NCBI GenBank assembly: GCA_039797645.1
Contig: JBDKHP010000029.1
Span: 1-28,129, forward strand
Source: Bacteroidota bacterium
GTDB lineage: Bacteria; Bacteroidota; Bacteroidia; Bacteroidales; JBDKHP01
Length of the DNA: 28,129 bases
Direction: 5' to 3'
Each line of letters starts with the position of its first letter. The stretch's first letter is position 1. Under the pieces are notes generated by a model. It did not search any database. It saw only the letters and a program-made list of their open reading frames with translations, and had not been told where the DNA came from. Below are positions 3,730 through 25,056 of the stretch, one piece after another. The translations under genes and the position numbers were made by a program.

Positions 3730-5841
3730 TTATTTTCTTGCGTCTTCGAGGCGTTTTACGAGTTGCACCATGCCAATTGGGTAGAGATTGTCGAGCCGTT
3801 CGCAGACATTGAGATGGTGTACGTCGGGTGTTTTTTCCCACTCGGTAGCGAGGGTTTGGTAGGCACCTGGGGGGAAGATTCGGTCGAGTTCGATCGGATA
3901 TTTTTCATCCCAGAGAATGCCGTAGTGGCTGAAAATGGTGTTCACGCTGTATCCACGTTCGGTAGCAATGGCTTCGGGTTCGTAGTTGGCTTGGTAGTAG
4001 GCGAAGGTGAGCTTGTGGGTTTCGCCTTTCATCCCTTTAAGCATATCCTTAATTTCTATGTAGATACGACACATTTCTTGGGTGAATTCATGGCCAAATT
4101 TTGCGGCTTTTACTTGCGTTACTCCTTCTATTTTTATGAATTGCGATATATGTATTGGGCGTTTTTCGGCAAGTTGCACAATGGTGCGGTCGTCGAAAAT
4201 ATGTGTTGGGACGATGCCTTGTTCTTCGGCCAGTTTGAAACGGAATTCTTTGAGTCGCGTTTGTACCAAAATGCGCATCTCTTCGCGTTTGGTAAGCTTC
4301 GTGGGGACCTCCAACGGTACTTCGGTTTTTTTGCCAAATACGATTTTGCGTAGCGTTACGGGTTGTATGCCTTGTAGCACCAGTTGGCTCAGCGGGGTGA
4401 GTTTCACGAAGTGGTTGTCGGTCATATCAATTTCGAGAATTCCTTGATTTTGGAGCTGTATTATAAATTGTTGCCAGTCTAAGTGGGAATATTCGCGGCC
4501 AGCTCCGTAGGTGCGAATGCGGTCGTAGCCTGCACGGATAAGGTCGGCGGTGTGCATTCCGCGTAGTACGTTAATGAGCATATTTGTCGCCGCTTTTTGT
4601 TCGAGTCGTGTTACAGCGGAAAGTGCTTTTTGGGCAACAATTGTACCGTCGAATCCCTCGGGAGGTGTTTCGCAATTGTCGCAATGCTTGCAGTTTGTAG
4701 TGGGTGTTTCGCCAAAATAACTGAGCAACATGGTGCCTCGGCAGGAGTACGATTCGGAAAAATCGCGCATCCGCATGAGCTTGGCACGTTCGATTTCTGC
4801 CATGGGGCTGGCCTGGTTTATGAAACCTTCTAGTGTACTTAGGTCGGCGTATGAGTAGAATAGGTAGGCTACACTGGGGAGTCCGTCGCGGCCAGCTCTG
4901 CCAATTTCTTGGTAGTATCCTTCTACGTTTTTAGGCATGTTGTAGTGCATTACGAAACGCACGTTAGATTTGTTGATACCCATCCCGAAGGCGACCGTGG
5001 CGCAGACAATTTTGGTGCGATCGGCAATAAAATCGGAGAGTACTTTTCGTCGGGTATCGGGCGGGAGTCCGGCGTGGTAAGCTGCGGCATTAAAGCCCGC
5101 TTTTTTGAGGCGTTCAGCAATTTGTTCGGTGCTTTTCTGGCTCAGGCTGTATATAATTCCAGATTCACGGGTGTAGTCGCCCAATATTCTGATAATCTGT
5201 TCAATACGTTTAATTCCCGGACGTACGTTCATGGTGATATTCGGCCTGTCGAACGAAAGTAAATATACTTCGGGGTTGGGCAGGCGGAGTTGTTTTACGA
5301 TGTCTTGGCGGGTGGCTTTGTCGGCAGTGGCAGTGAGTGCGATGATGGGCACTTCGGGGAATTTGGCCTTGAGGTAGTACATTTGGGCGTATTCTGGGCG
5401 GAAATCGTGCCCCCACGAACTGATGCAATGCGCCTCGTCTATGGCAATCAGACTGATCCGAATACGGCACATCATTTCGTAAAAGCTGCGTGTAACCATG
5501 CGTTCTGGTGCCACATACAACAGTTTGATTTGCCCACGTTCTACCTTTGCAATCACGTCGTTTTGCGTAGCTCCTGTCATGCTGCTATTTAGAAATGCTG
5601 CGGCTATACCATTCTGTATGAGTGAGTCCACTTGGTCTTGCATCAGTGCAATGAGTGGCGAAACTACAATCGCAGTACCTTCCATAATGAGGGCAGGAAG
5701 CTGAAACGTGAGCGATTTGCCACCGCCTGTGGGCATTACCACCACAGAATCGTGGCCTGCCATAAGGTTTTCTATAATTTCTTGCTGACTTGGGCGGAAT
5801 TGTTCGTAACCAAAGTACTTTTTGAGGGTTTCGTGTAGCAT
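3730..5841 (-). CDS. recQ: ATP-dependent DNA helicase RecQ (helicase core, RQC, HRDC, C-terminal HTH)
   Basis: 'LKKYFGYEQFRPSQ', Walker A 'MPTGGGKS', 'DEAHCISSWGHDFRPEY', 'VCATVAFGMGINK', 'YYQEIGRAGRDG', Zn site 'CRGTMLLSYFGE...CKHCDNC', HRDC 'IFDDRTIVQLA'. Confidence 0.96.
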   Translation of the reverse strand: MLHETLKKYFGYEQFRPSQQEIIENLMAGHDSVVVMPTGGGKSLTFQLPALIMEGTAIVVSPLIALMQDQVDSLIQNGIAAAFLNSSMTGATQNDVIAKVERGQIKLLYVAPERMVTRSFYEMMCRIRISLIAIDEAHCISSWGHDFRPEYAQMYYLKAKFPEVPIIALTATADKATRQDIVKQLRLPNPEVYLLSFDRPNITMNVRPGIKRIEQIIRILGDYTRESGIIYSLSQKSTEQIAERLKKAGFNAAAYHAGLPPDTRRKVLSDFIADRTKIVCATVAFGMGINKSNVRFVMHYNMPKNVEGYYQEIGRAGRDGLPSVAYLFYSYADLSTLEGFINQASPMAEIERAKLMRMRDFSESYSCRGTMLLSYFGETPTTNCKHCDNCETPPEGFDGTIVAQKALSAVTRLEQKAATNMLINVLRGMHTADLIRAGYDRIRTYGAGREYSHLDWQQFIIQLQNQGILEIDMTDNHFVKLTPLSQLVLQGIQPVTLRKIVFGKKTEVPLEVPTKLTKREEMRILVQTRLKEFRFKLAEEQGIVPTHIFDDRTIVQLAEKRPIHISQFIKIEGVTQVKAAKFGHEFTQEMCRIYIEIKDMLKGMKGETHKLTFAYYQANYEPEAIATERGYSVNTIFSHYGILWDEKYPIELDRIFPPGAYQTLATEWEKTPDVHHLNVCERLDNLYPIGMVQLVKRLEDARK

Positions 5842-5864
5842 GTGGGGGAACGTGGAAAAAATTC

Positions 5865-5892
5865 CTACCCCAAGTTTGTGGGCTTGGGGTAG
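5865..5892 (-). terminator. Hairpin between pyrH and recQ, possible intrinsic terminator on the - strand
   Basis: Perfect 10-bp stem CTACCCCAAG/CTTGGGGTAG with an 8-nt loop; on the - strand it is followed by GAATTTTTT, so the U-tract is offset. Confidence 0.5.
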
Positions 5893-5904
5893 AAGCTGGG
5901 GTTA

Positions 5905-7621: not shown

Positions 7622-7745
7622 AGCAAATTTTTGCCGAAAACCCCTCAGAATTTACGAGCTAAACGCACGAATATACTGTCAGACGCCAGCTGAACGAAAA
7701 GAAACAAGCTTTTCCCTGAAACGAGAGCAAACGTTTTATTCGGTA

Positions 7746-7880
7746 AGCCATAGGCTCGCCCACTGGTACGTTTGCCCCGCAAGATTTTGGTGTGGGTCTG
7801 GAAAGTGGGGCACGGTCTAGCCCGGATTGGTTCTCCTATTGCATAAGGTGGAGTTCTAGCTAAGAGCCAAATGCAGCAGC
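7746..7880 (-). repeat. Fragment D: internally deleted, degenerate copy of the ~255-bp repeat
   Basis: 'ggtgtgggtctggaaa..gcacggtctagcccggat' matches C2 'ggcgtgggtttggaaa..gcacggtctagcccggat' (18-nt exact run gcacggtctagcccggat); 'gctaagagcc' and 'gcagcagc' match the module in copy B; the central ~100 nt are replaced by a short unrelated segment. Confidence 0.7.
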
Positions 7881-7928
7881 TTCACGGGTAACTTTGTGTT
7901 ACGATAGTGCGTTTTACTTACCTTAATA

Positions 7929-8594
7929 TCAGATATTTAGGTAGTTAATAAACTCTTCGTAGCGGCTGTTGAGCATGGTTTCGGAATATTCGTTTTCGGA
8001 ATAAGAAGCCACGATTGAATACCCATAGCGTTCGAAACTTTGGATGATGGCGCTCAGATCCATTCGGTTGATTTTGAGGGTGAGGTTTACCATCATGCTG
8101 TCGGGGTGGGTCGATACGTAGAGGCTGAGTACTTTGGCGTCGTTGCCTTCTACAATTTGCGATATTTCGGTGAGGCTGTAGTCGTGGGTGTGCATTTCGA
8201 GCATCACTACCCCCCCAGGACTGTCGGCGCAAATGAGCATTGAGAAGTGTTTTACGAGGTCGATCAGGGTGATTACCCCGAGGTATTCTTCGTCGCGTTC
8301 TACCACTGGAATTACCGATAAATTGAGGCGGGATGCGACTTCTATTACTTCGTAAATGTGCTGATCTCCATATACAAAGGGCCGAAATAACGAGAGGGTA
8401 TGGTCGCCAATGGGTTCGTCGGCCATGTTCATGTTGTAGATGTCGCTGTCGGTAATAAGCCCCAAAAATTCTTCGCTGTTCACAATGGGCAAATGCGACA
8501 CCTTGAACACATCCATAATACTGAGTGCCATTTTGCCAGTGTCCGAGGTGCGGAGCACAGGCACAATTTCCGATATAAGAGAGCGTGCTAACAT
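7929..8594 (-). CDS. CBS-domain pair protein with ACT-like C-terminal domain (Bacteroidota type)
   Basis: Two CBS repeats ('VSHLPIVNSEEFLGLI', 'LSVIPVVERDEEYLGVI') and a C-terminal 'DYSLTEISQIVEGNDAKVLS...FERYGY' region. ATG 8594 (MLARSLIS) is preferred over the ORF-track start at 8633. Confidence 0.85.
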   Translation of the reverse strand: MLARSLISEIVPVLRTSDTGKMALSIMDVFKVSHLPIVNSEEFLGLITDSDIYNMNMADEPIGDHTLSLFRPFVYGDQHIYEVIEVASRLNLSVIPVVERDEEYLGVITLIDLVKHFSMLICADSPGGVVMLEMHTHDYSLTEISQIVEGNDAKVLSLYVSTHPDSMMVNLTLKINRMDLSAIIQSFERYGYSIVASYSENEYSETMLNSRYEEFINYLNI

Positions 8595-8706
8595 AGCTAC
8601 AATACTATAAAAAGTTTGCCAAAGCTGGTACATCTTACAAAAATGTTGTGCAGCATGGGCCTAATGGTGCGAATATATTATCTTGCTGACCCATTTCGTG
8701 GAGCAG

Positions 8707-8736
8707 CAAACATACAACTAAGACTTGTAAATCAAA
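8707..8736 (-). promoter_or_regulatory. Possible Bacteroidota promoter for the CBS gene
   Basis: On the - strand: TTTG (8736-8733), N18, TATGTTTG (8714-8707). Confidence 0.4.
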
Positions 8737-8757
8737 CAATTAGTTACAATAGATTTC

Positions 8758-9471
8758 ATGACAAAACTAAGTGTAAACATCAACAAAGTTGCTACAATTC
8801 GCAACGCACGCGGTAGTAACACCCCCGACGTTGTTCGTTTTGCCATAGACGCCGAGCAATTTGGCGCACAGGGCATCACCGTGCATCCGCGCCCAGACGA
8901 ACGGCATATTCGCCGCGACGACTTGAGCGCACTCAAAAAAGTGGTGCGTACAGAGTTCAATATCGAGGGCTACCCCTCGCCCGATTTTATTGAGATGGTG
9001 TGCCGCATTAAACCAGAGCAGGTAACTTTGGTGCCAGATCCGCCGGAGGCTATTACCTCGAGTGCTGGTTGGGACACGCGCACACACCTCGAATTTCTGA
9101 CGGATGTAATTGCGCGGTTTCAGTCCGTAGGAATCCGCACATCGATTTTCGTAGATACTACTGCCGTAAATATTGAGTATGCAGCACGCACCAAAACCAA
9201 CCGCGTGGAACTCTACACCGAGCCTTACGCCACAAACTACCCCACAGACCGCGAGAAGGCCGTTGCTCCATTCGTTGTAGCAGCCGAACTCGCCTTGAGC
9301 TTGGGCCTTGGCCTGAATGCTGGCCACGATTTGAGCCTCGACAATTTGGGCTATTTTGCCCGAATGGTGCCAGGTTTGCAGGAAGTATCCATTGGTCACG
9401 CGCTCGTTTCCGATGCCTTATACCTCGGCCTCGAAGAAACAATTAAGCGATACAAACGCTGCCTTTTGTAG
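8758..9471 (+). CDS. pdxJ: Pyridoxine 5'-phosphate synthase
   Basis: '[16 protein letters not shown]', '[13 protein letters not shown]', 'EFNIEG', 'QVTLVPD', 'VELYT', 'LNAGHDL', 'EVSIGHAL'. Confidence 0.97.
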
Positions 9472-9478
9472 CACCCTT

Positions 9479-9515
9479 ACAAAGCTTCGGAATTTCTGGA
9501 GCTTTGTGCTTTTTT
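9479..9515 (+). terminator. Intrinsic terminator after pdxJ
   Basis: 13-bp stem (including G-U pairs) acaaagcttcgga/tctggagctttgt followed by gctttttt, 7 nt after the stop codon. Confidence 0.7.
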
Positions 9516-9543
9516 GGCGGCATATAACCCAGTGAAGCCGAGA

Positions 9544-9805
9544 TAAAAAAAAAGAAAAATAAGGATTAGGAGCGGTAGCCCAACAGTATTTGTAAAGGCT
9601 GCTGCCGGCTATCCGCTTGTAGTCCTCGCGTTCGGGAACGTAATCAACTGGCAGTCATTGTATTTCAGTCGAAAGGCATCAGCTTGCTGGCACGGTATCA
9701 CACCGCTGTGGGCTACCGCTACTATCCGGGCTAGTTGTAGCTACTGTATCGTCTGTAACGCCGTAGGTACGCGGGGCCAATCCTTTCAGTTGGCCTACGG
9801 CCATG
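9544..9805 (+). repeat. Copy A of the ~255-bp dispersed repeat
   Basis: A-tract, GGAGC, CCGGCT, GTAGTCCTCGC (9619-9629), GCTGTGGGCTAC, ATCCGGGCTAG, GCCGTAGG..CCTACGGCCATG; same order and similar spacing as copies B, C1 and C2. Confidence 0.92.
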
Positions 9806-10222
9806 GGGCGAAAAGCCAACAAAGAACCCAAACAAGTTAGCAAAACGAAGAAAAAGTACGTAGCAAGCAAACTACTGTTTTTCAGCATTCTGTTTAAATC
9901 GCACCCCGAATTCCACCTACAAACAATACTGTATTTCACCGCAAATCGACACATAAAGACTGAAATTCGCATTTCGTAGCAGCAGTTACTACACACTTGA
10001 CACTGCCGCAGAAAAAGAAGTCGGAGTAAAAAAAACCATAAAACTTTGGTGCTGTATTTGCAGAAAAAATCGATACTGCTATATTATCCTCAAAAAATAG
10101 CTGTATATTTAAAAGCTTATTACTTTAATCAGCAAAAAACTACTTGCTCTAATTTAAGAACAATAACAATTTGTATTTTAAGAATATTCTCCAAACAAAA
10201 TATTTACAAAATTACCTACCCA

Positions 10223-11977: not shown

Positions 11978-11996
11978 AACCGCGTGTTGCGTGTTT

Positions 11997-12027
11997 AAAA
12001 AAGGCGACCAAATTGGTCGCCTTTTTT
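11997..12027. terminator. Bidirectional intrinsic terminator after the MCP gene
   Basis: Perfect 14-bp inverted repeat aaaaaaggcgacca/tggtcgcctttttt with a 3-nt loop. Confidence 0.88.
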
Positions 12028-12133
12028 GTTTGGTGGGTGCAATTCGAGTTCGGAATCTGTTGTGAAGCTATGGCTGGTGTTCTTTTTCGGAAGGAATTGG
12101 CTTTGTGCTCGGGGAGTGAATGGGGTGGTGTTT

Positions 12134-12392
12134 CATGGCCGTAGGCCAACGCAAAGTGTTGGCCAAGCGCACCTACGGCGTTGCAAACGGTGCTGCCGAC
12201 CGAACTAGCCCGGATCGCGGCAAGTAGCCCACAGCGGGGTGATGTTGTTACCTTTTTTACAGTGATTTAATTGAAATACAAGGGCTTCCAAGTGATTGCG
12301 CTACCGTCCGCGAGGACTACTGCTAAGAGCCGGCAGCCGCCGCCTAAAGTATTGTTGGGCCTCCGCTCCTAATTCTTTTTTTTATTTTTTTT
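12134..12392 (-). repeat. Copy B of the ~255-bp dispersed repeat (inverted relative to A)
   Basis: Reverse complement carries all invariant blocks and shares a 43-nt exact run (gctgtgggctacttgccgcgatccgggctagttcggtcggcag) with copy C1. Confidence 0.92.
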
Positions 12393-12596
12393 CAATCATT
12401 GTGTATTTCGAGACCTTGTTTTTTTCGATTTTTCTGAAAATTGTGTCTGTTCGTGTTGTTTTGGACTTTGCACGCGGCTGGAATACCGCGAACCGATATG
12501 CGAAAATATAACTTTGGGCTTTTGCGACTGGTGGCTGTAAAGTGACCCAAAGCGTGTTTTTAAGATTAATTAAGGGGTGTGTTTGGCTGTAAGTGC

Positions 12597-12625
12597 TTGT
12601 TTCTGTGGATAAAAGTTTACATTTG
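12597..12625 (+). promoter_or_regulatory. Bacteroidota-type promoter for kbl
   Basis: TTG (12597-12599), N18, TACATTTG (12618-12625); 33 nt upstream of the ATG. Confidence 0.55.
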
Positions 12626-12658
12626 AGTCTAAAATACACGCAAACAAGAATCTGAGAT

Positions 12659-13846: not shown

Positions 13847-13911
13847 GAAGTAATGCGTTGCAGGGTGGTTCCCTGCATATTTGATCTGAGATTGTGCATT
13901 AATTCAGCATG

Positions 13912-13946: not shown

Positions 13947-14028
13947 ATGCCCGCCCGGAAGGGTAGATAATAAAAGATGAAAAAACTTTTTTTAATCTTT
14001 TTTATTTAGAAACATTTTAAATAAAGTT

Positions 14029-17435: not shown

Positions 17436-17673
17436 ACGTCTAATTTTACACCCAAAGAACAGACCCAAGCTCCCGCAAAATGCACCGAGAAAGGCAGTCC
17501 CGAAAGTGTAAAAAAAAAAGATGCAAACCAAAGCCATCAAAAAGGCCAGTCCGTACGAAGATTAGCGCAAATAGCGAACGTAGAACTACAAAATATCGTA
17601 TATTGAACCCTTAATCTTGGGGCGAAATTTGCAACACGCAAATAGGTTTAAGCGGCACAAAAAAACATAGAGC

Positions 17674-19857
17674 ATGAAATCATGGCTAATAGCTATTTTT
17701 GGGGTACTAATTCCAATATTTACGGTAGCACAACAGGTTTATCTGACAGATAGTATCGAGTTCATACATAAAATCGACAAAAATTTAATACAGGTAACCG
17801 AAGCGCCCAACGAAAGCTTCACCATAAACCAACTCCTCCAAAAGCCTGAAGTATTTGAAGCCCATACCGCCAAAAACTACCTTCCCAGTAAGTCAAACGT
17901 TTCCGCCTGGGCCAAAGTCAAGATTGTATCTACCAGCGAAATAGATCGAGATTTGTTTCTTATTTGGTCCTCACAATCGGGTATGCGCATCAACGAACTC
18001 GAAGCCTACTTGGTACACAATGGGCAAGTACACGAAACCTTCCGCTTTGGCTACAACCGCAAAGCTTCGGAACTCTACAACACAGGCTTTCGCGATCGCT
18101 TCCGGTTCACAATGCTATCAAACGACACCGTTACAATCTACCTACACCTACACAACACCTTGGGCTACCCCCCAAGCTTCGACCTCCTACTTGCAGACAC
18201 CAATTCTTATACCCTATACGAACAAGGCCAAAAGCACTACCACTTTCTCTATTTTGGCGCACTCATCGTAATGATTCTCTACAACTTGTTGGTATATTCC
18301 TTCAATCGCGACAAAACCTACCTATATTATACCCTCTACATGATAAGTAGCCTGGTATATACCCTATACTTCTACCGATACATTATCAATTTCGCCATAC
18401 CCGAATTTCCCTTCCTAAATGCCTATTTCTGGCTCAGTTCGGTAGGAATTTCCACCGTATTCTACTACGCCTTTGTCCGTAGATTCTTCAATACGCCCAC
18501 CATTATACCGCATTGGGATCGGTTAATAAAAGCCGTAATGCTCATCAAGGTAATAGTCTGGCTCACAGAAATGATTGCCTACACCCTATTCCAACCCGTA
18601 AAGCTACTGGTAGATGTCGTAAACGTACAACTAATGCTCGAAGCTGTTTTCACCATCAGCCTCATGGTAAAACTCGCCCGCAACAACAAAGAAACAAGCT
18701 TTTTTGTACTCGCCGGCGCAGGTTTTCTGTGGTCCAGCCTCATCCTCACGACCATACTTTACACCATGGGCTATATGCGTGCGCAGCTCTGGTTTCAAAC
18801 AGGCGCCGTTCTTGAAATACTCTGCTACTCTGCTGGGCTTGGCTACCGGAGCATGATATCCGAACGCGACAAAATAAACGCACAGAAACAACTCTACTTA
18901 GAAGAAGTAAAAAACAAACGCATACAAGAAGAAGCCAACCAAAAACTCGAGCAGCGTATTAAAGAACGCACCCACGAGCTTAGCCAAACCAACGACAAGC
19001 TCCACTCCCTCAACACCGAACTAGAAGCCCAGAAAGAGGAAATCCTCTCACAAAACGAGACACTCTCGTCCACACTACTCGAGCTCAATGTAGCCCACAA
19101 TCAGATACAAGAAAGCATTAAATACGCAAGCCGCATACAACAATCCGTGATGCCGCCCCCACACGAACTCGATCTATACCTCGACACCCACTTTATGATA
19201 TTCCGTCCGCGCGACATCGTAAGCGGCGACTTTTTCTGGGCAAAAAAAATAGGCAACAAAACCATCGTTGCCATTGTCGATTGCACCGGGCACGGCGTCG
19301 GTGGTGCAATTCTCAGCATTCTAGGTATATCCATACTCAACGAAATAGCCAACGCCATACAACTCGGACACTTAGAATTTAGCCCCACAGCCATACTCGA
19401 TCGCCTACGCCAAAACGTAAAAATGGCCTTACACCATGGCGACTATACCAGCCGCGAAGGCATGGACGTAAGCCTCTGCATTATCGACAAAGACAGCCAG
19501 CAGATTCACTTTGCAGGCGCACACAACAACCTACTGATGATACGAAGCAACGAACTCATTGTCTTCAAAGGCGACCAAATGCCAATAGGCCAATACATAC
19601 GCGAAACACCATTTACCACACAAAGCACCCCCTACGAAACAGGCGACATGATCTATATGTACACCGACGGAATTACCGACCAATTCGGCGGAGCACTCGA
19701 AGAGAAATTCAAATCCCACCGCCTACGCGACCTAGTATATAACATCCGCAACCTTACCCTTGCCGACCAGAAAACCGAAATCGAACGCAAACACGAAACC
19801 TGGCGCAAAGGCTACAAACAACTCGACGACATACTCCTTATCGGGATGCGACTATAA
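17674..19857 (+). CDS. 7TM-DISM receptor with coiled coil and C-terminal SpoIIE/PP2C-type phosphatase
   Basis: Signal peptide; beta-rich extracellular region (7TMR-DISMED2-like); multi-TM region 'FLYFGALIVMILYNLLVY..RDKTYLYY'; coiled coil; PP2C motifs 'PRDIVSGDF', 'IVDCTGHGVGGA', 'YTDGITDQFGG', 'QLDDILLIG'. Confidence 0.88.
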   Translation: MKSWLIAIFGVLIPIFTVAQQVYLTDSIEFIHKIDKNLIQVTEAPNESFTINQLLQKPEVFEAHTAKNYLPSKSNVSAWAKVKIVSTSEIDRDLFLIWSSQSGMRINELEAYLVHNGQVHETFRFGYNRKASELYNTGFRDRFRFTMLSNDTVTIYLHLHNTLGYPPSFDLLLADTNSYTLYEQGQKHYHFLYFGALIVMILYNLLVYSFNRDKTYLYYTLYMISSLVYTLYFYRYIINFAIPEFPFLNAYFWLSSVGISTVFYYAFVRRFFNTPTIIPHWDRLIKAVMLIKVIVWLTEMIAYTLFQPVKLLVDVVNVQLMLEAVFTISLMVKLARNNKETSFFVLAGAGFLWSSLILTTILYTMGYMRAQLWFQTGAVLEILCYSAGLGYRSMISERDKINAQKQLYLEEVKNKRIQEEANQKLEQRIKERTHELSQTNDKLHSLNTELEAQKEEILSQNETLSSTLLELNVAHNQIQESIKYASRIQQSVMPPPHELDLYLDTHFMIFRPRDIVSGDFFWAKKIGNKTIVAIVDCTGHGVGGAILSILGISILNEIANAIQLGHLEFSPTAILDRLRQNVKMALHHGDYTSREGMDVSLCIIDKDSQQIHFAGAHNNLLMIRSNELIVFKGDQMPIGQYIRETPFTTQSTPYETGDMIYMYTDGITDQFGGALEEKFKSHRLRDLVYNIRNLTLADQKTEIERKHETWRKGYKQLDDILLIGMRL

Positions 19858-19890
19858 AAAAACGCGGCATTCCGTACAGGTATGCCGCGT
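19855..19890 (-). terminator. Intrinsic terminator for the PurQ-like gene (convergent junction)
   Basis: Stem acgcggcat/atgccgcgt with an A-run on its left, which reads as a U-tract on the - strand. Confidence 0.7.
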
Positions 19891-19915
19891 CACAAAATAT
19901 ATAAGTCCGGAAAAA

Positions 19916-20572
19916 TCAATAACTACCATTGTGGTGCATCACAGACCAAAAAATCTTCAAACCGTCCGTATTGCCCATCTCGTCGTCCACCGCACGTTCC
20001 GGGTTAAAAAGCAATCCCACAAAACGCCGATCGGCCGAACAAGCACCCGCCACACTCTCCAGGGGCACATTCACCCCACACACCTCTTCACCCTCATCCA
20101 GAAACCCAAACAAACGCAAATCGGCCTGAGACTCCTCCAAGCACCACCTACCAGCCTCCGTAGCCAAAGGCAAAAAAAGCACTTCTCCCAATTCTGTCTG
20201 GTTGTTCACCACCGAATCCTGCCCACAGGAAGTCACACTGATTTCCTTATCCACAAATAACTTCCCCATATTTTCGAGAATTTTACCCGGCAACAAGCCC
20301 TCGGCCACAAAAAAAGCCACCGCATCGCCCAGTGCAATCACCGGTTTACCCGCCGACGCCCTTTCGCGCAACAGCGGCCACAAAACAAAATGCGTATCCT
20401 GCGCCCAAGGCACAAAACTCAAATCCTCAGCCACCAAATACACATCGGCTTGGGGCAACTCTTGCCCAGTAGCAGCTACTACCACAGCAGTTTGGTCCAA
20501 CATCACATCAATCGCATACACCAAATTCTCAGTGTTCACAGCGTGCGGAAAATCAATAATTGCAAATACCAT
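19916..20572 (-). CDS. PurQ-like class I glutamine amidotransferase paralogue lacking the catalytic Cys and His (218 aa)
   Basis: Aligns with PurQ from memory: 'MVFAIIDFP' ~ 'MKFAVIVLP'; 'GKPVIALGDAVAFFVAEGLLPG' ~ '[22 protein letters not shown]'; 'LPLATEAG' ~ 'IPVAHGEG'; 'GLLFNPERAVDDEMGNTDGLKIF' ~ '[23 protein letters not shown]'. ATG 20572 is preferred; the 20710 extension is low complexity and runs into repeat C1. Confidence 0.8.
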   Translation of the reverse strand: MVFAIIDFPHAVNTENLVYAIDVMLDQTAVVVAATGQELPQADVYLVAEDLSFVPWAQDTHFVLWPLLRERASAGKPVIALGDAVAFFVAEGLLPGKILENMGKLFVDKEISVTSCGQDSVVNNQTELGEVLFLPLATEAGRWCLEESQADLRLFGFLDEGEEVCGVNVPLESVAGACSADRRFVGLLFNPERAVDDEMGNTDGLKIFWSVMHHNGSY

Positions 20573-20588
20573 ATCGGGTCGTTTCCCC

Positions 20589-20619
20589 CAAATGTAGCAA
20601 AAAAACCAGCAGAAACAAA
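20589..20619 (-). promoter_or_regulatory. Bacteroidota-type promoter for the PurQ-like gene
   Basis: On the - strand: TTTG (20619-20616), N19, TACATTTG (20596-20589), 16 nt upstream of the ATG. The region is CAAA-rich, so a chance -33 match is possible. Confidence 0.55.
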
Positions 20620-20620
20620 G

Positions 20621-20654
20621 CAAAACGCACAAAACACACAAAACACCAAAAGCC
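20621..20654 (+). repeat. Short degenerate tandem repeat (CAAAAC-based, 8-9 nt period)
   Basis: caaaacgca caaaacaca caaaacac caaaagcc, just outside copy C1. Confidence 0.5.
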
Positions 20655-20670
20655 AGTAACTCCCGAAAGC

Positions 20671-20925
20671 AAAAAAATAAAAATAAAGATAAGGAGCTGT
20701 AACTCAACAATATTTGTAAGGGCTGCTACCGGCTCTTGGCTGTAGTCCTCGCAACGGGTACGCAATCACTTGGCTACCCTTATTTTTCAATTTCACGCTG
20801 GTACGAATGGCCACTACGGCTCATGCTGTGGGCTACTTGCCGCGATCCGGGCTAGTTCGGTCGGCAGTACCGTTTGTAAGGCCGTAGGTGCGAGGGGCAA
20901 CACTTTGCGTTGGCCTACGGCCATG
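20671..20925 (+). repeat. Copy C1 of the ~255-bp dispersed repeat (left arm of the doublet)
   Basis: All invariant blocks present (GTAGTCCTCGC at 20742-20752); 43-nt exact run shared with B. Confidence 0.92.
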
Positions 20926-21019: not shown

Positions 21020-21272
21020 CATGGCCGCAGGCCAACTGGCTAGGCGGATACAGCGAAATAACGGCGTGGGTTTGGAAATAAGCCGCACGGTCTAGCCCGG
21101 ATAGTAGCGGTAGCCCACAGCAAGGTGATGCAATTGCCTTTTGTACTGTGCTTCGATTGAAATACACAAGCCGCCAAGTGTAGCAGCACCCGTTTGCGAG
21201 GACTACAAGCGGATAGCCGGCAGCGGGGTTTATTTGAAAAGTCTTGCTCCCGCTCCTTATCTTTATTTTTTT
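21020..21272 (-). repeat. Copy C2 of the ~255-bp dispersed repeat (right arm of the doublet)
   Basis: Reverse complement shares 29-nt (gctgccggctatccgcttgtagtcctcgc) and 30-nt (gctgtgggctaccgctactatccgggctag) exact runs with A; ends in gctccttatctttattttttt. Confidence 0.9.
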
Positions 21273-21689
21273 CTAACAGCTAGTTTGGGCATTCAAGCTG
21301 TTAATTAAGACCGGTTGAGTTTGCAAATACGCTGCTATTTTGAGTCCGTTTTTTTGTTGATCTGAGTGTGTAATCGGATTTTTTTTAGGCTCTACACGTA
21401 GTAAACCCCACGAAAAACAGGGTCTTTAGGTGCAAGGCTAAGCTTTTTTTTGCGGGATGAAAATAGTGCAGCCTCGTTTTTTAATTCGTTAGATTCATGC
21501 AAAATTCAAGAAAAACACAAGCTTGGTTTTTTAATCGGACAATTTGCTCCAGACACGGCTGATGCGTCATTTATGTTATTAAAACACAAAAAACACCTAT
21601 AAAATCGTCCTTTGGGCAGGTTCTACTCAAAAATGATATAACTTTAAAGCCAAATTCACAAACGCTAAAATTACACACACAACACGACA

Positions 21690-22352
21690 ATGGCAAAAAT
21701 TATTCAATTTGGGGAACATGTAGAAGGCTACAAAATCCCTGTTCTCAATGAGCGCGAGATTCGCGCTGCTGCTGGAATTCTTTTCGTACTTATGTTTCTA
21801 TCGGTGCTTATGGCAATTTTAAAAGGCGAATTTACTTTGCTCAAATATGCCGTTTCGATATTTATGGCCGACATTCTTGTGCGGGTACTTATCAACCCAA
21901 AATATGCACCTACGCTCATAATCGGGAGGTTAATTGTGCGTAACCAAACGCCTGAATACGTGGGAGCTGCACAGAAAAAATTTGCGTGGGTAATTGGAAT
22001 TATACTCGCCGCAACGATGCTCATTTTGGCCGTTGTGCTCAATACGTATAGCGCAATTACGGGTCTTATTTGTCTTATATGCCTTATCTTTTTGTTTTTC
22101 GAGTCGGCCTTTGGGATATGCCTGGGGTGTAAATTCTACAATCTTTTTTACAAAGAAAAAGCTCAATACTGCCCCGGAGAGGTGTGCGAACTTAAAGACC
22201 GACAGGAAATCCAGAAAACATCGGCTACGCAGTTGCTTATTGTGCTGGCTTTTGTGGGTTATATCGTGCTGTTGGTTTTTGTGTTTAAAGACAATTTTAA
22301 GGAACGGCCTCACAGTTTATTTCCGATGGAAACCCCTGCACACGCTGAATAG
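21690..22352 (+). CDS. DUF4395-family membrane protein
   Basis: 'LNEREIRAAAGILF', 'EYVGAAQKKFAWVIG', 'FESAFGICLGC', 'YCPGEVC'; several TM helices. Family call is from recognition of these motifs. Confidence 0.75.
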   Translation: MAKIIQFGEHVEGYKIPVLNEREIRAAAGILFVLMFLSVLMAILKGEFTLLKYAVSIFMADILVRVLINPKYAPTLIIGRLIVRNQTPEYVGAAQKKFAWVIGIILAATMLILAVVLNTYSAITGLICLICLIFLFFESAFGICLGCKFYNLFYKEKAQYCPGEVCELKDRQEIQKTSATQLLIVLAFVGYIVLLVFVFKDNFKERPHSLFPMETPAHAE

Positions 22353-22423
22353 TGTGTATAAAAGATAAATCTCGGACACACAATTTCGATTTTTTATCTC
22401 ACAAATCATAAAAACTAATTTTT

Positions 22424-22849
22424 ATGCCCTCACCAGTATCAGAATGCTTGTATTGCCAAAACAACGAGACGCTCGATCGTCTGATGGTTAAGATTTGCGA
22501 CCTTGGTGTTTCGCGTCTGTTTCTCTTTAAAGAACAGTCGTACACTGGCCGTTGCAACGTTGTGTACAAGGATCACGCGGTGGACTTTCACCAACTTACC
22601 GAGTCTGATCGCAATGCCTTTATGGCCGACGTAGCACGCGTAGGTAAAGCTATCGACGCGGCTTTTAGTCCTACAAAAATTAACTACGGCGCATACAGCG
22701 ACACGCTATCGCATTTACACATGCACATTGTTCCGAAATATGCCGAAGGTTACGGTTTTGGTGGTGTTTTCGAGATGAACCCACAAAAAACCTTTCTTTC
22801 CGACGAAGAATATAGTGCATTGATCGAAAAAATTAAAGCCAATCTTTAG
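22424..22849 (+). CDS. HIT-family hydrolase
   Basis: N-terminal CxxC 'CLYC'; histidine triad 'HLHMHIVP'; 'KINYGAYSD'. Confidence 0.9.
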   Translation: MPSPVSECLYCQNNETLDRLMVKICDLGVSRLFLFKEQSYTGRCNVVYKDHAVDFHQLTESDRNAFMADVARVGKAIDAAFSPTKINYGAYSDTLSHLHMHIVPKYAEGYGFGGVFEMNPQKTFLSDEEYSALIEKIKANL

Positions 22850-22880
22850 CGTAAATAGCGTTTTTTTGTGTAATACTTCG

Positions 22881-22914
22881 CAGCCCCACAAGTGAATTTG
22901 TGGGGCTGTTTTTT
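22881..22914 (+). terminator. Intrinsic terminator after the HIT gene
   Basis: Perfect 11-bp stem CAGCCCCACAA/TTGTGGGGCTG, 6-nt loop, T6 tail. Confidence 0.88.
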
Positions 22915-22938
22915 GTGGTTTTCGGACGTGTTTTGCTA

Positions 22939-22969
22939 TTTGTACGAGATGCCGTTTTTATTAACTTTG
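22939..22969 (+). promoter_or_regulatory. Canonical Bacteroidota promoter for metG
   Basis: TTTG (22939-22942), N19, TAACTTTG (22962-22969); lies downstream of the ORF-track start, supporting ATG 23026. Confidence 0.75.
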
Positions 22970-23025
22970 CGGCTTCTATTGGGAGTCGGTTTTCGGCGAA
23001 AAACCCTGATGTAAAAGATTTTGTA

Positions 23026-25056
23026 ATGAACGATATACAACGATACCTCGTAACTTCTGCCTTGCCGTACGCGAATGGGCCTATCCATATTGGCCATTTG
23101 GCGGGTGTGTATGTGCCTGCCGATATTTATGTGAGATTCTTGCGTCTCAAAAATCGGGATGTGGTATGGGTCTGCGGTTCGGATGAGCATGGTGTGCCTA
23201 TTACGCTGAAAGCTAAGAAACAAGGCATTTCGCCACAGGCTGTGGTGGACGAGTTTCATGAGCTGAATAAGAAGGCGTTTGAGGATTTTGGTATTTCGTT
23301 CGATATTTATTCGCGCACCAGCAGCAAGGTGCACCACGAAACGGCTTCGGCTTTCTTTCGGAAGTTGTACGACTTGGGTAAGTTTGTGGAGAATACGACC
23401 GAACAGTTTTACGACCAAGAGGCCGATCAGTTTTTGGCCGATAGATATATTACGGGTACGTGCCCTAAATGTGGCAACGAACGTGCGTATGGCGACCAAT
23501 GCGAGGCTTGCGGTAGTACGCTGAGTGCATTGGAGTTGATTAATCCGCAATCGACACTTTCGGGCAGTAAGCCTATTCTGAAGCCCTCGAAACACTGGTA
23601 TTTGCCGCTCGATCAGTATGAGGATTTTCTGAAGGAGTGGATTTTGGAAGGTCATAAGGAATGGAAATCGAATGTGTATGGTCAGTGTAAATCGTGGATA
23701 GACGGGGGCTTGCAGCCTAGAGCCGTGAGCCGCGATTTGGATTGGGGTGTGCCTGTTCCCGTAGAAGGTGCCGAGGGCAAAGTGCTGTATGTGTGGTTCG
23801 ATGCGCCTATTGGTTATATTTCTGCTACCAAAGAGTTTACGCCAGATTGGGAAAAGTATTGGAAAGCAGACGACACGAAATTGGTGCATTTTATTGGGAA
23901 GGATAATATTGTGTTTCACTGCATTATTTTCCCTGCGATGTTGAAGGCCGAAGGGAGTTTTATTCTGCCCGAAAACGTGCCAGCCAATGAGTTTTTGAAT
24001 CTGGAAAACGATAAGATTTCGACCTCGCGCAATTGGGCGGTGTGGTTGCACGAATATATTCAGGATTTCCCGGAACAACAGGATTCGCTGCGCTATGCGC
24101 TTACGGCGAATGCGCCAGAAACAAAGGACAACGATTTTACTTGGAAGGATTTTCAGGCGAGACACAACAACGAGCTGTTGGCAATTTGGGGTAATTTTGT
24201 GAACAGGGCGGTGGTACTGACCCATAAATATTACGACGGTTTTGTGCCTGCAGCCGATATGAATGCGGGCGATGTGGAAACTCTTGCGCAGATTGCGGAA
24301 CTTACCCAAAAAGTGGAATCGGAAATTGAAACTTATCACTTTCGTTCGGCGCTGAAATATGCGATGGACTTGGCGCGTGTGGGCAACAAATATTTGGCCG
24401 ATCAACAACCTTGGATCGTGCAGAAAACCGACCCCGAACGGGTGAAAACAATCATGAACGTATCGCTGCAAATTGCGGCTGCTACGGCGATTATCTTCGA
24501 GCCTTTTACGCCTTTCAGTACGGCACGTTTGCGCAATTTGCTGAATATGCCAAGCTTTACTTGGGATATGTTGCAAAAAACCGAGTTTTTGCCTGTGGGG
24601 CATAAATTGGGTGCTGCCGAATTGTTGTTCAAACAGATTGAAGATGCGGCAATTGAAGCGCAGGTGCAAAAACTGGAGGATACCAAAAAAGCCAATCTTG
24701 CGCAACAGGCTGTGGCTGCTCCGCAGAAACCAAATGTGAGTTTCGAGCAGTTTCAGACGATGGATATTCGCGTGGGTACAATTCTGGAAGCGGAGCGTGT
24801 GCCCAAGGCTAAGAAATTGTTGAAACTCCTGATTGACACAGGGATAGATAAACGTACGGTGGTATCGGGCATTGCCGAACATTATGCGCCTGCCGACATT
24901 GTGGGCAAACAGGTGTCTATTCTGGTGAACCTTGAGCCTCGGAGTATTCGGGGTATCGAATCGCAAGGGATGATTCTGATGGCCGAAAATTTTGACGGCT
25001 CGCTCAGTTTCGTACAGCCCGACAAGAACAACAAACCAGGTTCGGAAATCAGATAA
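23026..25056 (+). CDS. metG: Methionine--tRNA ligase with C-terminal tRNA-binding domain
   Basis: '[15 protein letters not shown]' (HIGH), 'GSDEHG', Zn knuckle 'CPKC..CEAC', '[10 protein letters not shown]', 'FIGKDNI.FH', KMSKS-equivalent 'KISTSRN', OB-fold '[19 protein letters not shown]'. Confidence 0.97.

What the first reader, a model, noticed from the sequence alone, without database searches (positions are those of the whole stretch)
3730..25056. Repeat loci mark origin-polarity switches in strand composition, independent of gene direction
Seen (hand counts of + strand bases at third codon positions in selected ~20-codon samples). G/T-rich to the right of loci: recQ 3841-3900 15/20 (- gene), CBS 8041-8100 15/20 (- gene), kbl 12842-12901 19/20 and 12962-13021 18/20, metG 23221-23280 16/20. 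A/C-rich to the left of loci: pdxJ 9181-9240 17/20, SpmA/B 16261-16320 17/20 (- gene), 7TM 18121-18180 18/20 and 19681-19740 18/20, PurQ-like 20401-20460 17/20 (- gene). Between B and C1 the bias decays and reverses around cysK/cysE (14701-14760 9/20 G/T; 15543-15599 16/19 A/C). Genes on both strands and both gene ends share the same + strand bias, so codon preference or gene polarity does not explain it. Established: an A/C to G/T switch is the polarity seen at replication origins and fits ssDNA deamination bias. Inference: these elements may seed local, outward, strand-asymmetric DNA synthesis or ssDNA exposure (nicking/strand displacement, R-loops or outward transcription) over several kb. 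Caveats: samples were not random; DUF4395, just right of C2, is only weakly biased (10-12/20); a similar switch near 26.1 kb has no recognisable element.
Basis: partly seen in the sequence, partly recalled or inferred. Interest (0 to 1): 0.8.

Follow-up and report, generated by a model that had tools for sequence, protein, structure and literature searches.

The report
Repeat element imprints one-strand mutation bias
In this uncultured freshwater Bacteroidota bacterium, a 258-base intergenic repeat present about once every 4 kb is followed for several kb by a strong excess of G and T at silent sites on its own strand, whichever way the genes run, and I found no published description of a repeat doing this.

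Summary
The "repeat loci" are copies of a ~258-nt structured element: 628 hits, 452 of them full length, in a 2.66-Mb, 73%-complete MAG. Its core is a divergent Flavo-1 motif (Rfam RF01705).

On the strand that reads the element head to tail:
- G+T at fourfold-degenerate sites is 0.68-0.75 just beyond the T-rich tail, for co-oriented and anti-oriented genes alike.
- The excess fades over kilobases (e-fold length about 4 kb).

Copies almost always sit head to head, so each pair gives an A/C to G/T "origin-like" switch. An element lies within 600 bp of 46 of 47 strong origin-like switches and of 0 of 16 terminus-like switches. Element-free intergenic sites show the opposite mean polarity (p = 4e-49).

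Gene direction, codon preference and misjoined contigs do not explain the pattern; read damage is unlikely.

The mechanism is not shown. I favour a one-strand DNA event launched at the tail (a nick or priming followed by outward synthesis) over outward transcription. The skew crosses a strong terminator, ignores gene orientation, and no conserved promoter motif turned up.

The signature was not found in 400 genomes of the same order. Canonical Flavo-1 copies elsewhere show no skew. Unchecked notes from this scan report hairpin-anchored local skews in other genomes.

The parts
9546..9805 (-). Element copy A, full length. Head at 9805, T-rich tail at 9546 pointing left towards pdxJ.
   Evidence: nhmmer score 260.7, model positions 1-257. 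Aligned with the other copies.
12134..12392 (+). Element copy B, full length. Tail at 12392 pointing right towards kbl.
   Evidence: nhmmer score 267.8. Alignment. Core helix kept.
20671..20925 (-). Element copy C1, full length. Tail at 20671 pointing left. It overlaps the called start of the PurQ-like ORF.
   Evidence: nhmmer score 257.8.
21020..21276 (+). Element copy C2, full length. It lies head to head with C1 (94 bp between heads), with its tail pointing right. The core at 21090-21227 matches Flavo-1.
   Evidence: nhmmer score 213.1. cmscan RF01705 26.6 bits, E=0.0027, whole model matched, below the gathering score of 42.
7737..7900 (+). Short variant of the element: a REP-like hairpin, the CTAGCCCGGAT block at 7817-7827, and an AGCC..GCAGCAGC block. 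Missed by the element HMM.
   Evidence: Sequence read. About 17 relatives in other intergenic regions. Eight copies lying outside main-element hits have GT4 0.61-0.76 downstream against 0.42-0.46 upstream.
3668..3745 (.). Remnants of two element tails back to back. A ~50-nt tail fragment lies on the - strand (3668-3730) and a ~25-nt tail end on the + strand (about 3714-3745).
   Evidence: Alignment to the four tails. Sequence.
12393..14256 (+). Skew domain downstream of B (kbl). The + strand is G/T-rich at silent sites.
   Evidence: GT4 0.84, 0.78, 0.90 and 0.68 in blocks of 50 sites, then 0.48. Whole kbl gene 0.82. GC skew up to +0.35.
16203..20670 (-). Skew domain downstream of C1. It covers PurQ-like (-), 7TM kinase (+) and SpmA/B (-). 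The - strand is G/T-rich, so the + strand is A/C-rich.
   Evidence: + strand GT4 0.02-0.48. Per gene 0.20, 0.19 and 0.35. GC skew down to -0.33 and AT skew +0.30.
21277..25222 (+). Skew domain downstream of C2 (DUF4395, a 141-aa ORF, metG). The + strand is G/T-rich. The domain runs through a strong + strand terminator hairpin at 22880-22909.
   Evidence: GT4 0.58-0.76, falling to 0.54 and 0.40 after metG. Terminator-like site with a 13-bp stem.
8526..9545 (-). Skew domain downstream of A (the 3' part of pdxJ, which is anti-oriented to the element). The + strand is A/C-rich.
   Evidence: + strand GT4 0.36-0.42. pdxJ 0.35.
3766..5416 (+). G/T-rich domain over recQ (a - strand gene) with no full element beside it, only the tail remnants at 3668-3745.
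   Evidence: GT4 0.64-0.78. recQ 0.69. No HMM hit in this part of the contig.
9806..12133 (.). Interior between the heads of A and B (chemoreceptor gene). No strong skew.
   Evidence: GT4 0.42-0.52. Gene value 0.51.

Best explanation
SHOWN. A ~258-nt structured intergenic element anchors a strand-specific substitution bias.
- Anatomy, 5' to 3': a hairpin carrying GTAG, a long Flavo-1-like hairpin with a variable tip, a small hairpin, then a T run (the 'tail').
- Abundance: at least 628 copies, about one per 4 kb and 5% of the assembly.
- Effect: on the strand that reads the element head to tail, silent sites gain G (and some T) and lose A and C.
- Shape: the bias starts 0.5-1.5 kb before the head and peaks just past the tail at G+T about 0.75-0.8. 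The fitted value for a copy with no opposing neighbour is 0.89. It fades with an e-fold length of about 4 kb, whichever way the genes run.
- Arrangement: copies sit head to head, so each pair looks like a replication-origin switch. Between two pairs the opposing gradients add up to a near-linear ramp that crosses 0.5 midway.

INFERRED, as the most likely mechanism. A one-strand DNA event is launched at or near the tail: a nick or a priming event, followed by outward 5'->3' synthesis (strand displacement or long-patch resynthesis). The downstream sense strand would then be affected in one of two ways. It could be left single-stranded again and again, which favours deamination of C to U and of A to hypoxanthine. 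Or it could be rebuilt again and again with uncorrected G.T mispairs. Either route gives A->G and C->T on that strand, with a processivity-type decay.
For: Association and polarity:
- 452 full-length copies.
- Downstream GT4 is 0.68 for co-oriented genes and 0.73-0.75 for anti-oriented genes.
- 91.5% of 353 copies exceed 0.5, and the distribution has one peak.
- Step test p=3.8e-49, and 46 of 47 strong switches lie at elements.

Mutational origin rather than selection or artefact:
- Fourfold sites 0-1 kb downstream shift to A .14, C .13, G .43-.45, T .29. Codon positions 1+2 shift by only +0.04.
- The shift is the same in every neighbour context.
- kbl is 5 SD away from 80 orthologues.

A DNA-level, distance-limited process:
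- Two opposing exponentials (lambda 4.3 kb) fit tail-to-tail intervals better than a constant-amplitude or a constant-slope ramp.
- The drop within genes (0.023 per 400 bp) is close to the drop across gene boundaries (0.037-0.068).
- The gene beside the tail is anti-oriented in 230 of 417 cases.
- The skew crosses a 13-bp-stem terminator at 22880-22909.
- No promoter motif is conserved at a fixed position in or near the element.
- Flavo-1 hits in F. psychrophilum lie sense or antisense of transcribed regions, or outside them (PMC9723704).

The element is under selection as a folded nucleic acid:
- Mean pairwise identity is 73%, yet some blocks are invariant and Watson-Crick covariation is present (101:174 as AT/GC/TA, 82:193, 119:156).

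Element position and orientation explain about half of the non-sampling variance in silent-site skew genome-wide (r2 0.44 on 60-site blocks).
Against: - No nick, ssDNA or nascent-strand data exist. The only runs labelled RNA look like DNA.
- No candidate enzyme was found: no Y1/HUH transposase and no reverse transcriptase in the 72.7% of the genome that is assembled.
- Isolated copies also show a 1.5-kb ramp upstream of the head. A simple nick-and-extend model needs an added back-resection step to explain this.
- Change points are mildly enriched at gene 3' ends (22% against 13% within 150 bp). Boundaries with a sense-oriented gene end drop a little more. This hints that RNA polymerase may play some part.
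- Twenty canonical Flavo-1 copies in two other genomes show no downstream skew, so the core motif alone does not produce the effect.
- Logan contigs break inside elements, so left-right linkage across a copy is not independently confirmed.
- The recQ domain has only tail remnants beside it.
Confidence: 0.45

Rival explanations
1. Outward transcription or R-loops. Each element is, or sits behind, a strong promoter or makes RNA polymerase resistant to termination. Read-through RNA leaves the non-template (sense) strand exposed and the template strand preferentially repaired. That would give G+T excess on the sense strand.
For: - The sign of the skew (G>C, T>A on the strand with RNA polarity) is the one known for transcription-associated asymmetry (my own knowledge: Green et al. 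2003; Francino and Ochman 1996-2001).
- The upstream ramp at isolated copies could reflect transcripts entering from varied upstream starts.
- Domain ends are mildly enriched at gene 3' ends, and the drop is slightly larger where a sense-oriented gene ends.
- In the window, three domains end at co-oriented gene ends.
- RNase HI was not found in the assembled 72.7%, which is weak evidence.
- The -7-like motif TAnnTTTG is enriched 0-200 nt past the tail. G/T richness alone would also produce that enrichment.
Against: - No promoter motif is conserved at a fixed position.
- 55% of tail-adjacent genes are anti-oriented, so such transcription would be antisense to them.
- The skew is as strong or stronger over anti-oriented genes.
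- It passes a strong co-oriented terminator at 22880-22909 without a drop.
- Divergent boundaries, which have no terminator, drop as much as the others.
- The decay is smooth and exponential.
- Flavo-1 hits elsewhere are not consistently transcribed (PMC9723704).
- The amplitude (GT4 0.75-0.8) would need very high transcription at hundreds of sites.
Confidence: 0.2
2. True dispersed replication initiation. Head-to-head pairs act as hundreds of small origins. Forks from neighbouring pairs meet between them, and the skew follows fork direction, as in the 'N-domains' of mammalian genomes.
For: - There are upward jumps at pairs (0.34 on the left, 0.68 on the right).
- Between pairs the decline is near-linear and crosses 0.5 at the midpoint in every spacing class from 2 to over 7.5 kb.
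- Skew autocorrelation is negative at 4-7 kb.
Against: - Isolated copies act on one strand only and leave the upstream side neutral, not mirror-imaged.
- The constant-amplitude ramp expected from fork direction fits worse than two fixed exponential decays (-LL 16870.6 against 16816.3).
- Amplitude grows with spacing.
- About 300 origins in under 4 Mb has no precedent in bacteria (my own knowledge).
- DnaA boxes and unwinding elements were not examined.
Confidence: 0.1
3. Passenger model. Something else creates the switch points, and the elements merely insert or survive there in a fixed orientation. A comparison is IS200/IS605-type elements, which orient with the replication fork.
For: - Orientation-specific insertion relative to replication is known for ssDNA transposons (PMC3971601, listed; my own knowledge: Ton-Hoang et al. 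2010).
- The two arms of a pair are no more alike than random copies (0.746 against 0.733), so pairs arise from independent insertions or from selection.
Against: - The bias peaks exactly at the tail and decays away from it.
- No other feature marks the switches. Only 4.7% of element-free intergenic sites show a step above 0.2.
- Gene direction does not explain the bias.
- Better-conserved copies have slightly stronger skew (rho 0.11, p=0.03).
- No Y1 transposase was found.
Confidence: 0.05
4. Artefact: chimeric joins or inversions at repeats in a genome with strong replication skew, or strand-specific read damage.
For: - The MAG is fragmented (525 contigs, 72.7% complete).
- Independent Logan contigs stop inside the elements.
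Against: - Random misjoins would give both polarities equally. The observed result is 88% of one polarity, with 0 of 16 terminus-like switches at elements.
- The skew decays smoothly inside unique sequence that independent contigs from two samples cover at 7-8x.
- The bias is concentrated at fourfold sites and nearly absent at codon positions 1+2. That is expected of fixed substitutions filtered by selection, and damaged reads would be expected to alter all codon positions alike.
Confidence: 0.02

Closest known systems
Flavo-1 RNA motif (Rfam RF01705; Weinberg et al. 2010, PMC2864571)
   Same: The element core carries the Flavo-1 signature: UAGCC..GAU.G.AGCGG ... AGCGGA.AGC.GG, closing a long hairpin with a variable tip. 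It matches the whole model, is found in Bacteroidota, and occurs in several copies per genome. The function of Flavo-1 is unknown, and its copies are not tied to transcripts (PMC9723704).
   Different: - It scores 26.6 bits, below the gathering score of 42.
- It carries extra modules: a 5' GTAG hairpin, a 3' hairpin and a T-rich tail.
- It has about 630 copies, against 1-17 or more in relatives.
- The canonical copies examined show no flanking skew.
Replication-associated strand skew with its switch at oriC (Lobry-type; reviewed in PMC3269012 and PMC3269016, listed)
   Same: The polarity is the same (A/C to G/T on the + strand), the bases involved are the same, the effect is strongest at silent sites, and it is independent of gene direction.
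   Different: It occurs at hundreds of sites per genome rather than one. It has kb-scale decay rather than Mb-scale plateaus. It is anchored to a repeat and set by that repeat's orientation. Isolated copies act on one strand only.
Vertebrate mitochondrial strand asymmetry under strand-displacement replication (my own knowledge: Reyes et al. 1998; Faith and Pollock 2003; see also PMC10730292, listed)
   Same: One strand is extremely rich in G+T at silent sites, consistent with A->G and C->T changes on that strand. A positional gradient is tied to fixed structured start sites (a hairpin with a T run, like OL). The amplitude is comparable.
   Different: This is a bacterial chromosome with hundreds of anchors and both strands affected in alternation. 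No replication mechanism has been demonstrated.
Skew N-domains of mammalian genomes (my own knowledge: Touchon et al. 2005; Huvet et al. 2007)
   Same: Upward jumps at fixed sites and a linear decline between them.
   Different: The scale is kb rather than Mb and the amplitude is about ten times larger. A superposition of fixed decays fits better than fork directionality.
Transcription-associated mutational asymmetry (my own knowledge: Francino and Ochman; Green et al. 2003; PMC2927911, listed)
   Same: G+T excess on the strand with 'sense' polarity.
   Different: Here the polarity follows the element, not the genes. Anti-oriented genes are affected as strongly.
REP/REPIN elements and their RAYT transposases (my own knowledge: Nunvar et al. 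2010; Bertels and Rainey 2011)
   Same: Abundant intergenic palindromic repeats, a GTAG next to a hairpin at one end, and inverted doublets as the usual arrangement.
   Different: The unit is about ten times longer. Doublet arms are unrelated copies at variable spacing rather than a replicating unit. No Y1 transposase gene was found. I know of no report of skew around REPINs (own knowledge; not searched for REPIN by name).
Double-strand and single-strand origins of rolling-circle plasmids, ColE1 RNA II / R-loop priming, and oriK sites of constitutive stable DNA replication (my own knowledge)
   Same: Structured, orientation-specific elements that launch one-directional DNA synthesis and expose one strand. 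This is the working analogy for the mechanism.
   Different: Those are single sites on plasmids, or appear only in mutant backgrounds. No Rep protein or nickase was identified here, and nothing was tested.

Membership tests
Flavo-1 RNA motif (RF01705) | Score at or above Rfam's gathering threshold (42 bits) | tested here: not met
   C2 core 26.6 bits, E=0.0027 in a 751-nt search. No match at E<=0.001 in the whole genome, with only 64 of 918 candidates scored. No match at gathering level in the window.
Flavo-1 RNA motif (RF01705) | Conserved sequence blocks on both sides of a hairpin with a variable tip, matched over the whole model | tested here: met
   cmscan alignment of model positions 1-76: UAGCCCGGAUAGUAGCGG ... 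AAGCGGAUAGCCGG. The same blocks occur in Flavobacterium MAG copies that score 31.8 and 53 bits.
Flavo-1 RNA motif (RF01705) | Base-paired stem supported by compensatory changes | tested here: met
   Core helix (columns 77-105 with 179-208) is kept in 24 of 24 copies, with compensatory changes at 85:198 and 105:179. Across 336-452 copies: 101:174 as AT/GC/TA, 82:193 as AT/CG, 119:156, 117:157. Part of this covariation reflects two subfamilies.
REPIN / RAYT system | A cognate Y1 (RAYT / IS200-type) transposase gene in the genome | tested here: not met
   PF01797 gave no match in G000, and the positive controls did match. The genome is only 72.7% complete, so absence is not proven.
REPIN / RAYT system | The doublet replicates as a unit, so the two arms of a pair are each other's closest relatives | tested here: not met
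   Arm-to-arm identity is 0.746, against 0.733 for random pairs. Subfamilies are paired at random (43 I-II, 29 I-I, 15 II-II).
Chromosomal replication origin (oriC type) | A/C to G/T switch of the + strand at silent sites, independent of gene direction | tested here: met
Chromosomal replication origin (oriC type) | One or a few per chromosome, with Mb-scale skew arms | tested here: not met
   104 head-to-head neighbour pairs in 2.66 Mb, 62 of them tight. Decay length is about 4 kb.
Chromosomal replication origin (oriC type) | DnaA boxes, an AT-rich unwinding element, and linkage to dnaA/dnaN | not tested
   Not examined. The spacers between heads are not conserved.
Transcription-associated skew | The sign of the skew follows the direction of the transcribed gene | tested here: not met
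   Co-oriented genes 0.68 and anti-oriented genes 0.73-0.75 on the same strand. In the window, 7TM, recQ, CBS and pdxJ carry the 'wrong' sign.
Strand-displacement (mtDNA-like) exposure gradient | Both C loss/T gain and A loss/G gain on one strand at silent sites | tested here: met
   T/(C+T) rises from about 0.5 to 0.61-0.75, and G/(A+G) from about 0.5 to 0.58-0.79, in every neighbour context.
Strand-displacement (mtDNA-like) exposure gradient | A gradient proportional to time spent single-stranded between a fixed start site and the next priming site | tested here: inconclusive
   The ramps are near-linear and amplitude grows with spacing. Two fixed exponentials fit best, and the scaling exponent is 0.45 (CI 0.23-0.86), which is neither 0 nor 1.
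MITE (non-autonomous DNA transposon) | Terminal inverted repeats and target-site duplications | not tested
   The ends differ (CATGGCC... head, T-run tail), which argues against terminal inverted repeats. Target-site duplications were not searched for. No recurrent gene lies between paired arms.

The most novel reading that the evidence does not exclude
The elements are dispersed start sites for one-directional DNA synthesis on a bacterial chromosome. There would be hundreds of orientation-specific 'mini-origins' or nick-and-displace sites built on a Flavo-1-type hairpin. Each would repeatedly expose or rebuild one strand for several kb, rewriting the silent sites, and so the codon usage, of about half the genome. 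This would also give the Flavo-1 motif, orphaned since 2010, a DNA-level function.
Probability: 0.3. Interest if true: 0.95.

Novelty: categorically new. Interest (0 to 1): 0.85.

Why it matters
Strand composition skew in bacteria is read as the footprint of one origin, one terminus and gene direction. In this genome the main determinant of silent-site composition is the position and orientation of a repeat family. It explains about half of the non-sampling variance, and the spread of per-gene G+T at silent sites is four times the sampling expectation.

If the cause is a local DNA event, this points to a previously undescribed way in which a selfish or domesticated element shapes mutation in its neighbourhood. 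It would be a natural system of targeted, strand-specific mutagenesis acting on housekeeping genes. It would also be a first functional lead for Flavo-1-type motifs.

There are practical consequences as well. Such genomes defeat skew-based origin prediction. They distort codon-usage and horizontal-transfer statistics. They create long spurious antisense ORFs: the one opposite metG is longer than metG itself.

Unchecked notes from this scan report hairpin-anchored local skews in a sponge-associated bacterium and in archaea, so the phenomenon may be wider.

Tried and rejected
- Rfam at gathering level over the window, and tRNA search: nothing found.
- Small-ORF reading of the repeats: no conserved frame.
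- An autonomous copy carrying a gene between the arms: 42 enclosed proteins, with no recurrent family.
- Y1 transposase and reverse transcriptase: not found.
- Context-specific deaminase signature: none; the shift is uniform.
- Fixed-site Okazaki priming on a one-direction fork: rejected. Both orientations are equally skewed and the distribution has one peak. Isolated copies also ramp up, not down, just upstream.
- Break-and-resection at palindromes: the predicted polarity of the exposed strand is the opposite of what is seen, and isolated copies are not mirror-symmetric (reasoning).
- Skew as a general property of Flavo-1: rejected for 20 copies in two genomes.
- The same-genus 8-Mb genome G001: no element. 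Its 1-kb skew SD is only moderately raised (0.076-0.10), and there is no negative autocorrelation. Not pursued further.
- Transcription evidence: the runs labelled RNA-Seq behave like DNA and give no strand information.
- JGI metagenome contigs: no match to the signature.
- Genome-wide additive models gave short decay lengths (1.5-2 kb). I attribute this to unmodelled elements beyond contig ends, and I trust the estimate of 4.3 kb from intervals bounded on both sides.
- Repair-gene census. UDG, MutL and Mfd are present. RNase HI, endonuclease V and canonical MutS were not found. This is uninformative at 72.7% completeness.
- Literature searches for a precedent: none found.

Full report
**What the window is.** The window is the longest contig (C29, 28,129 bp) of a fragmented metagenome-assembled genome. 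The assembly has 525 contigs, 2.66 Mb, 44% G+C, and is 72.7% complete with 0.08% contamination. It belongs to the Bacteroidota; the best kbl relatives are 74-75% identical at the protein level. Near-identical sequence is held by freshwater and wastewater metagenomes from several studies.

**Checking the observation.** Every count matched. Whole-gene values agree with them. The + strand G+T fraction at fourfold-degenerate sites (GT4) is 0.82 in kbl, 0.71 in metG and 0.69 in recQ, which is a minus-strand gene. It is 0.19 in the plus-strand 7TM kinase, 0.20 in the minus-strand PurQ-like gene and 0.35 in SpmA/B. The tool's own profile shows GC skew from +0.35 to -0.33 inside the window. The same kbl gene in 80 other Bacteroidota has GT4 0.49 +/- 0.06 with a maximum of 0.67. 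The bias therefore belongs to this genome, not to the gene.

**What the repeat loci are.** The window holds four full copies of a ~258-nt element:
- A, 9546-9805, minus strand
- B, 12134-12392, plus strand
- C1, 20671-20925, minus strand
- C2, 21020-21276, plus strand

I call the CATGGCCGTAGGCC end the head and the GCTCC...T-run end the tail. 'Sense' is the strand read head to tail.

A profile built from the four copies finds 628 hits in the genome, 452 of them full length. They lie in 390 of 525 contigs and make up 5.2% of the assembly. Copies are old: mean pairwise identity is 73%. Several blocks are nevertheless invariant.

The middle of the element forms a long hairpin. Its lower stem is kept in every copy. 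Its variable upper part keeps pairing through compensatory changes: 101:174 as A-T, G-C or T-A; 82:193; 119:156; 117:157. RNAalifold on 24 copies gives the same picture.

No Rfam family reaches its threshold. In a permissive search, however, the core matches the whole Flavo-1 model (RF01705) at 26.6 bits. The same conserved blocks occur in Flavobacteriales MAGs, where they score 31.8 to 53 bits. Flavo-1 is a motif of unknown function described in 2010 (PMC2864571). In Flavobacterium psychrophilum its copies lie sense or antisense of transcribed regions, or outside them (PMC9723704). The element is therefore a greatly amplified and extended relative of Flavo-1. It fails the family's score threshold.

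**The association across the genome.** I called 1,926 genes with a small self-trained dicodon model. It reproduces my manual gene list for the window.

- On the sense strand, GT4 in the first kilobase beyond the tail is 0.68 for genes co-oriented with the element and 0.73-0.75 for anti-oriented genes. It returns to 0.5 at about 2.5-3 kb.
- Of 353 copies with enough downstream sequence, 91.5% exceed 0.5, and the distribution has a single peak at 0.69.
- On the + strand, the right-minus-left step is +0.20 at elements of either orientation (88% positive). It is -0.094 at element-free intergenic sites (22% positive). The Mann-Whitney test gives p=3.8e-49.
- Of 47 strong origin-like switches, 46 have an element within 600 bp, where about 30% would be expected. 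None of 16 strong terminus-like switches has one.
- A model using only element position and orientation gives r2=0.44 on blocks of 60 sites. That is about half of the variance not due to sampling, even though elements beyond contig ends are unmodelled.
- One-kb keto skew has SD 0.134 in this genome. In 80 loci of other Bacteroidota the pooled SD is 0.056 (median per locus 0.045). In the same-genus genome it is 0.076-0.10.

**Why the switches look like origins.** Neighbouring copies alternate in orientation. There are 104 head-to-head pairs (median 340 bp between heads), 42 tail-to-tail pairs (median 3.9 kb), and only 13 tandem pairs. The two arms of a pair are no more alike than random copies, and the two subfamilies pair at random. 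Pairs are therefore not duplicated units.

Around 62 tight pairs, + strand GT4 is about 0.34 on the left and 0.68 on the right for 2 kb. Fifty-one isolated copies show what a single arm does. Beyond 2 kb upstream the strand is neutral. GT4 then ramps up from about -1.5 kb (0.56) to 0.67 at the head, peaks at 0.78 just past the tail, and decays downstream. Each copy thus acts on one strand. The two-sided switch is the sum of two arms.

**Shape of the gradient.** Between two facing tails the + strand runs almost linearly from about 0.79 to about 0.20. It crosses 0.5 at the midpoint in every spacing class from 2 kb to over 7.5 kb, and the amplitude grows with spacing.

I fitted four models to 46 such intervals (26,656 sites). 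Two opposing exponentials with an e-fold length of 4.3 kb and an amplitude of 2.06 logit units (0.89 at the tail if unopposed) fit best. They beat a constant-amplitude ramp, a constant-slope ramp and a power-law scaling.

Within genes the drop is 0.023 per 400 bp. Across gene boundaries it is 0.037-0.068, with only a small excess where a sense-oriented gene ends. Per-element change points are mildly enriched at gene 3' ends.

**Nature of the bias.** At fourfold sites 0-1 kb downstream the sense strand has A .14, C .13, G .43-.45, T .29, against about .25 each in neutral zones. Codon positions 1 and 2 move by only +0.04 in keto skew. The bias therefore consists of fixed substitutions filtered by purifying selection, which is not what damaged reads would be expected to give. 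Both T/(C+T) and G/(A+G) rise by similar amounts whatever the neighbouring base. This argues against a context-specific deaminase.

**Mechanism.** The G/T-rich strand runs 5'->3' away from the tail. That polarity fits three things:
- the strand displaced by synthesis primed at the element
- the non-template strand of outward transcription
- the lagging-strand template of an outward fork

It does not fit the 3' tail left by resection at a break.

I favour a DNA-level event on one strand for these reasons:
- The effect ignores gene orientation. Tail-adjacent genes are anti-oriented in 230 of 417 cases.
- In the window it passes a 13-bp-stem terminator at 22880-22909 without any drop.
- The decay is smooth.
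- No promoter motif is conserved at a fixed position.
- Flavo-1 copies elsewhere are not tied to transcripts.

Either repeated single-strandedness or repeated resynthesis would give the observed A->G and C->T. Single-strandedness acts through deamination of C and A. Resynthesis acts through uncorrected G.T mispairs.

Points against this view:
- There are no direct data.
- No enzyme was identified.
- The upstream ramp at isolated copies is not explained by a simple model.
- Gene 3' ends have a small effect.
- Twenty canonical Flavo-1 copies in two other genomes show no downstream skew.

Transcription or R-loops (0.2) and true mini-origins (0.1) stay open. The repair-gene census is uninformative at this level of completeness.

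**Artefacts.** Logan contigs from two independent samples cover the unique flanks at 7-8x with almost no differences. They stop inside the elements, where summed depth rises into the thousands, consistent with hundreds of copies. Linkage across an element is therefore unconfirmed. A misjoin inside an element would still keep each tail attached to its own flank, and random misjoins would give both polarities equally. The data show one polarity. I rate artefact at 0.02.

**Distribution.** The 30-nt signature occurs 485 times in this genome. It was not found in 400 other genomes of the order (236 genera), including the 8-Mb same-genus genome, or in the JGI metagenome contigs. Related cores occur singly in Flavobacteriales MAGs.

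**What remains unexplained in the window.**
- The G/T-rich recQ domain (3766-5416) has only two back-to-back tail remnants beside it. The minus-oriented remnant has no matching A/C-rich zone to its left.
- A short variant element at about 7737-7900 precedes the G/T-rich CBS gene. Eight relatives of this variant show the same polarity.

**Precedent.** Four literature searches found no description of repeat-anchored kb-scale skew in bacteria. Other agents of this scan have noted hairpin- or palindrome-anchored local skews in a sponge-associated bacterium and in archaea, and a Flavo-1-type repeat family in another genome. These are unchecked notes. I use them as leads only.

Noticed in passing
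window 22936-25176 (- strand), opposite metG 22900-25056: An antisense ORF of 746 aa lies opposite metG and is longer than metG itself (718 aa). It is probably a by-product of the skew: with few A and C at + strand third positions, the opposite strand has few stop codons. Such shadow ORFs could mislead gene callers in this genome.
   Followed up: partly
G000 intergenic regions, e.g. C27:481-618, C126:10398-10915, C291:7150-7202: Other repeat families are present. One is a ~130-nt palindromic MITE-like unit. One is a tandem ~110-nt repeat. A third is a ~40-nt REP-like hairpin (GCCAAGCCGTAGGCTTGGC followed by GTACGATAA) with 20 or more copies, and its loop resembles the head hairpin of the main element.
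   Followed up: no
G029 loci L131 (second copy), L132, L133: In a complete 4.9-Mb genome of the same order, three of four Flavo-1 copies sit at the end of a stretch of at least 5 kb that is G/T-rich (+0.15 to +0.3) on the motif's sense strand upstream. The skew drops to about 0 right after the motif. This is the reverse of the geometry seen here.
   Followed up: no
L117:4843-4984 (-) and 5350-6361 (+): In a Flavobacteriales MAG, a Flavo-1-like copy with the same conserved blocks lies about 370 nt upstream of a 16S rRNA gene.
   Followed up: no
G001 (same genus, 8 Mb), e.g. L091:7000-16000 and L093:5500-17000: The same-genus genome lacks the element. It still has some 6-10 kb stretches with keto skew of 0.2-0.3 covering genes on both strands. 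Over 420 kb its 1-kb skew SD is 0.076 with no negative autocorrelation.
   Followed up: partly
G000 whole genome: RNase HI (PF00075), endonuclease V (PF04493) and a canonical MutS (only a 97-bit MutS_V match, on C402) were not found. UDG, MutL and Mfd are present. At 72.7% completeness these absences are not reliable.
   Followed up: partly
window 16121-16187: A 31-nt inverted repeat, likely a two-way terminator, lies between the convergent cysE-like and SpmA/B genes. It sits where the C1 skew domain ends.
   Followed up: no
window 9806-12133: The chemoreceptor gene enclosed between the heads of A and B is AT-richer (G+C 0.38-0.43) and unskewed. Genome-wide, 30 of 40 wide pairs enclose one to four unrelated genes.
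   Followed up: partly
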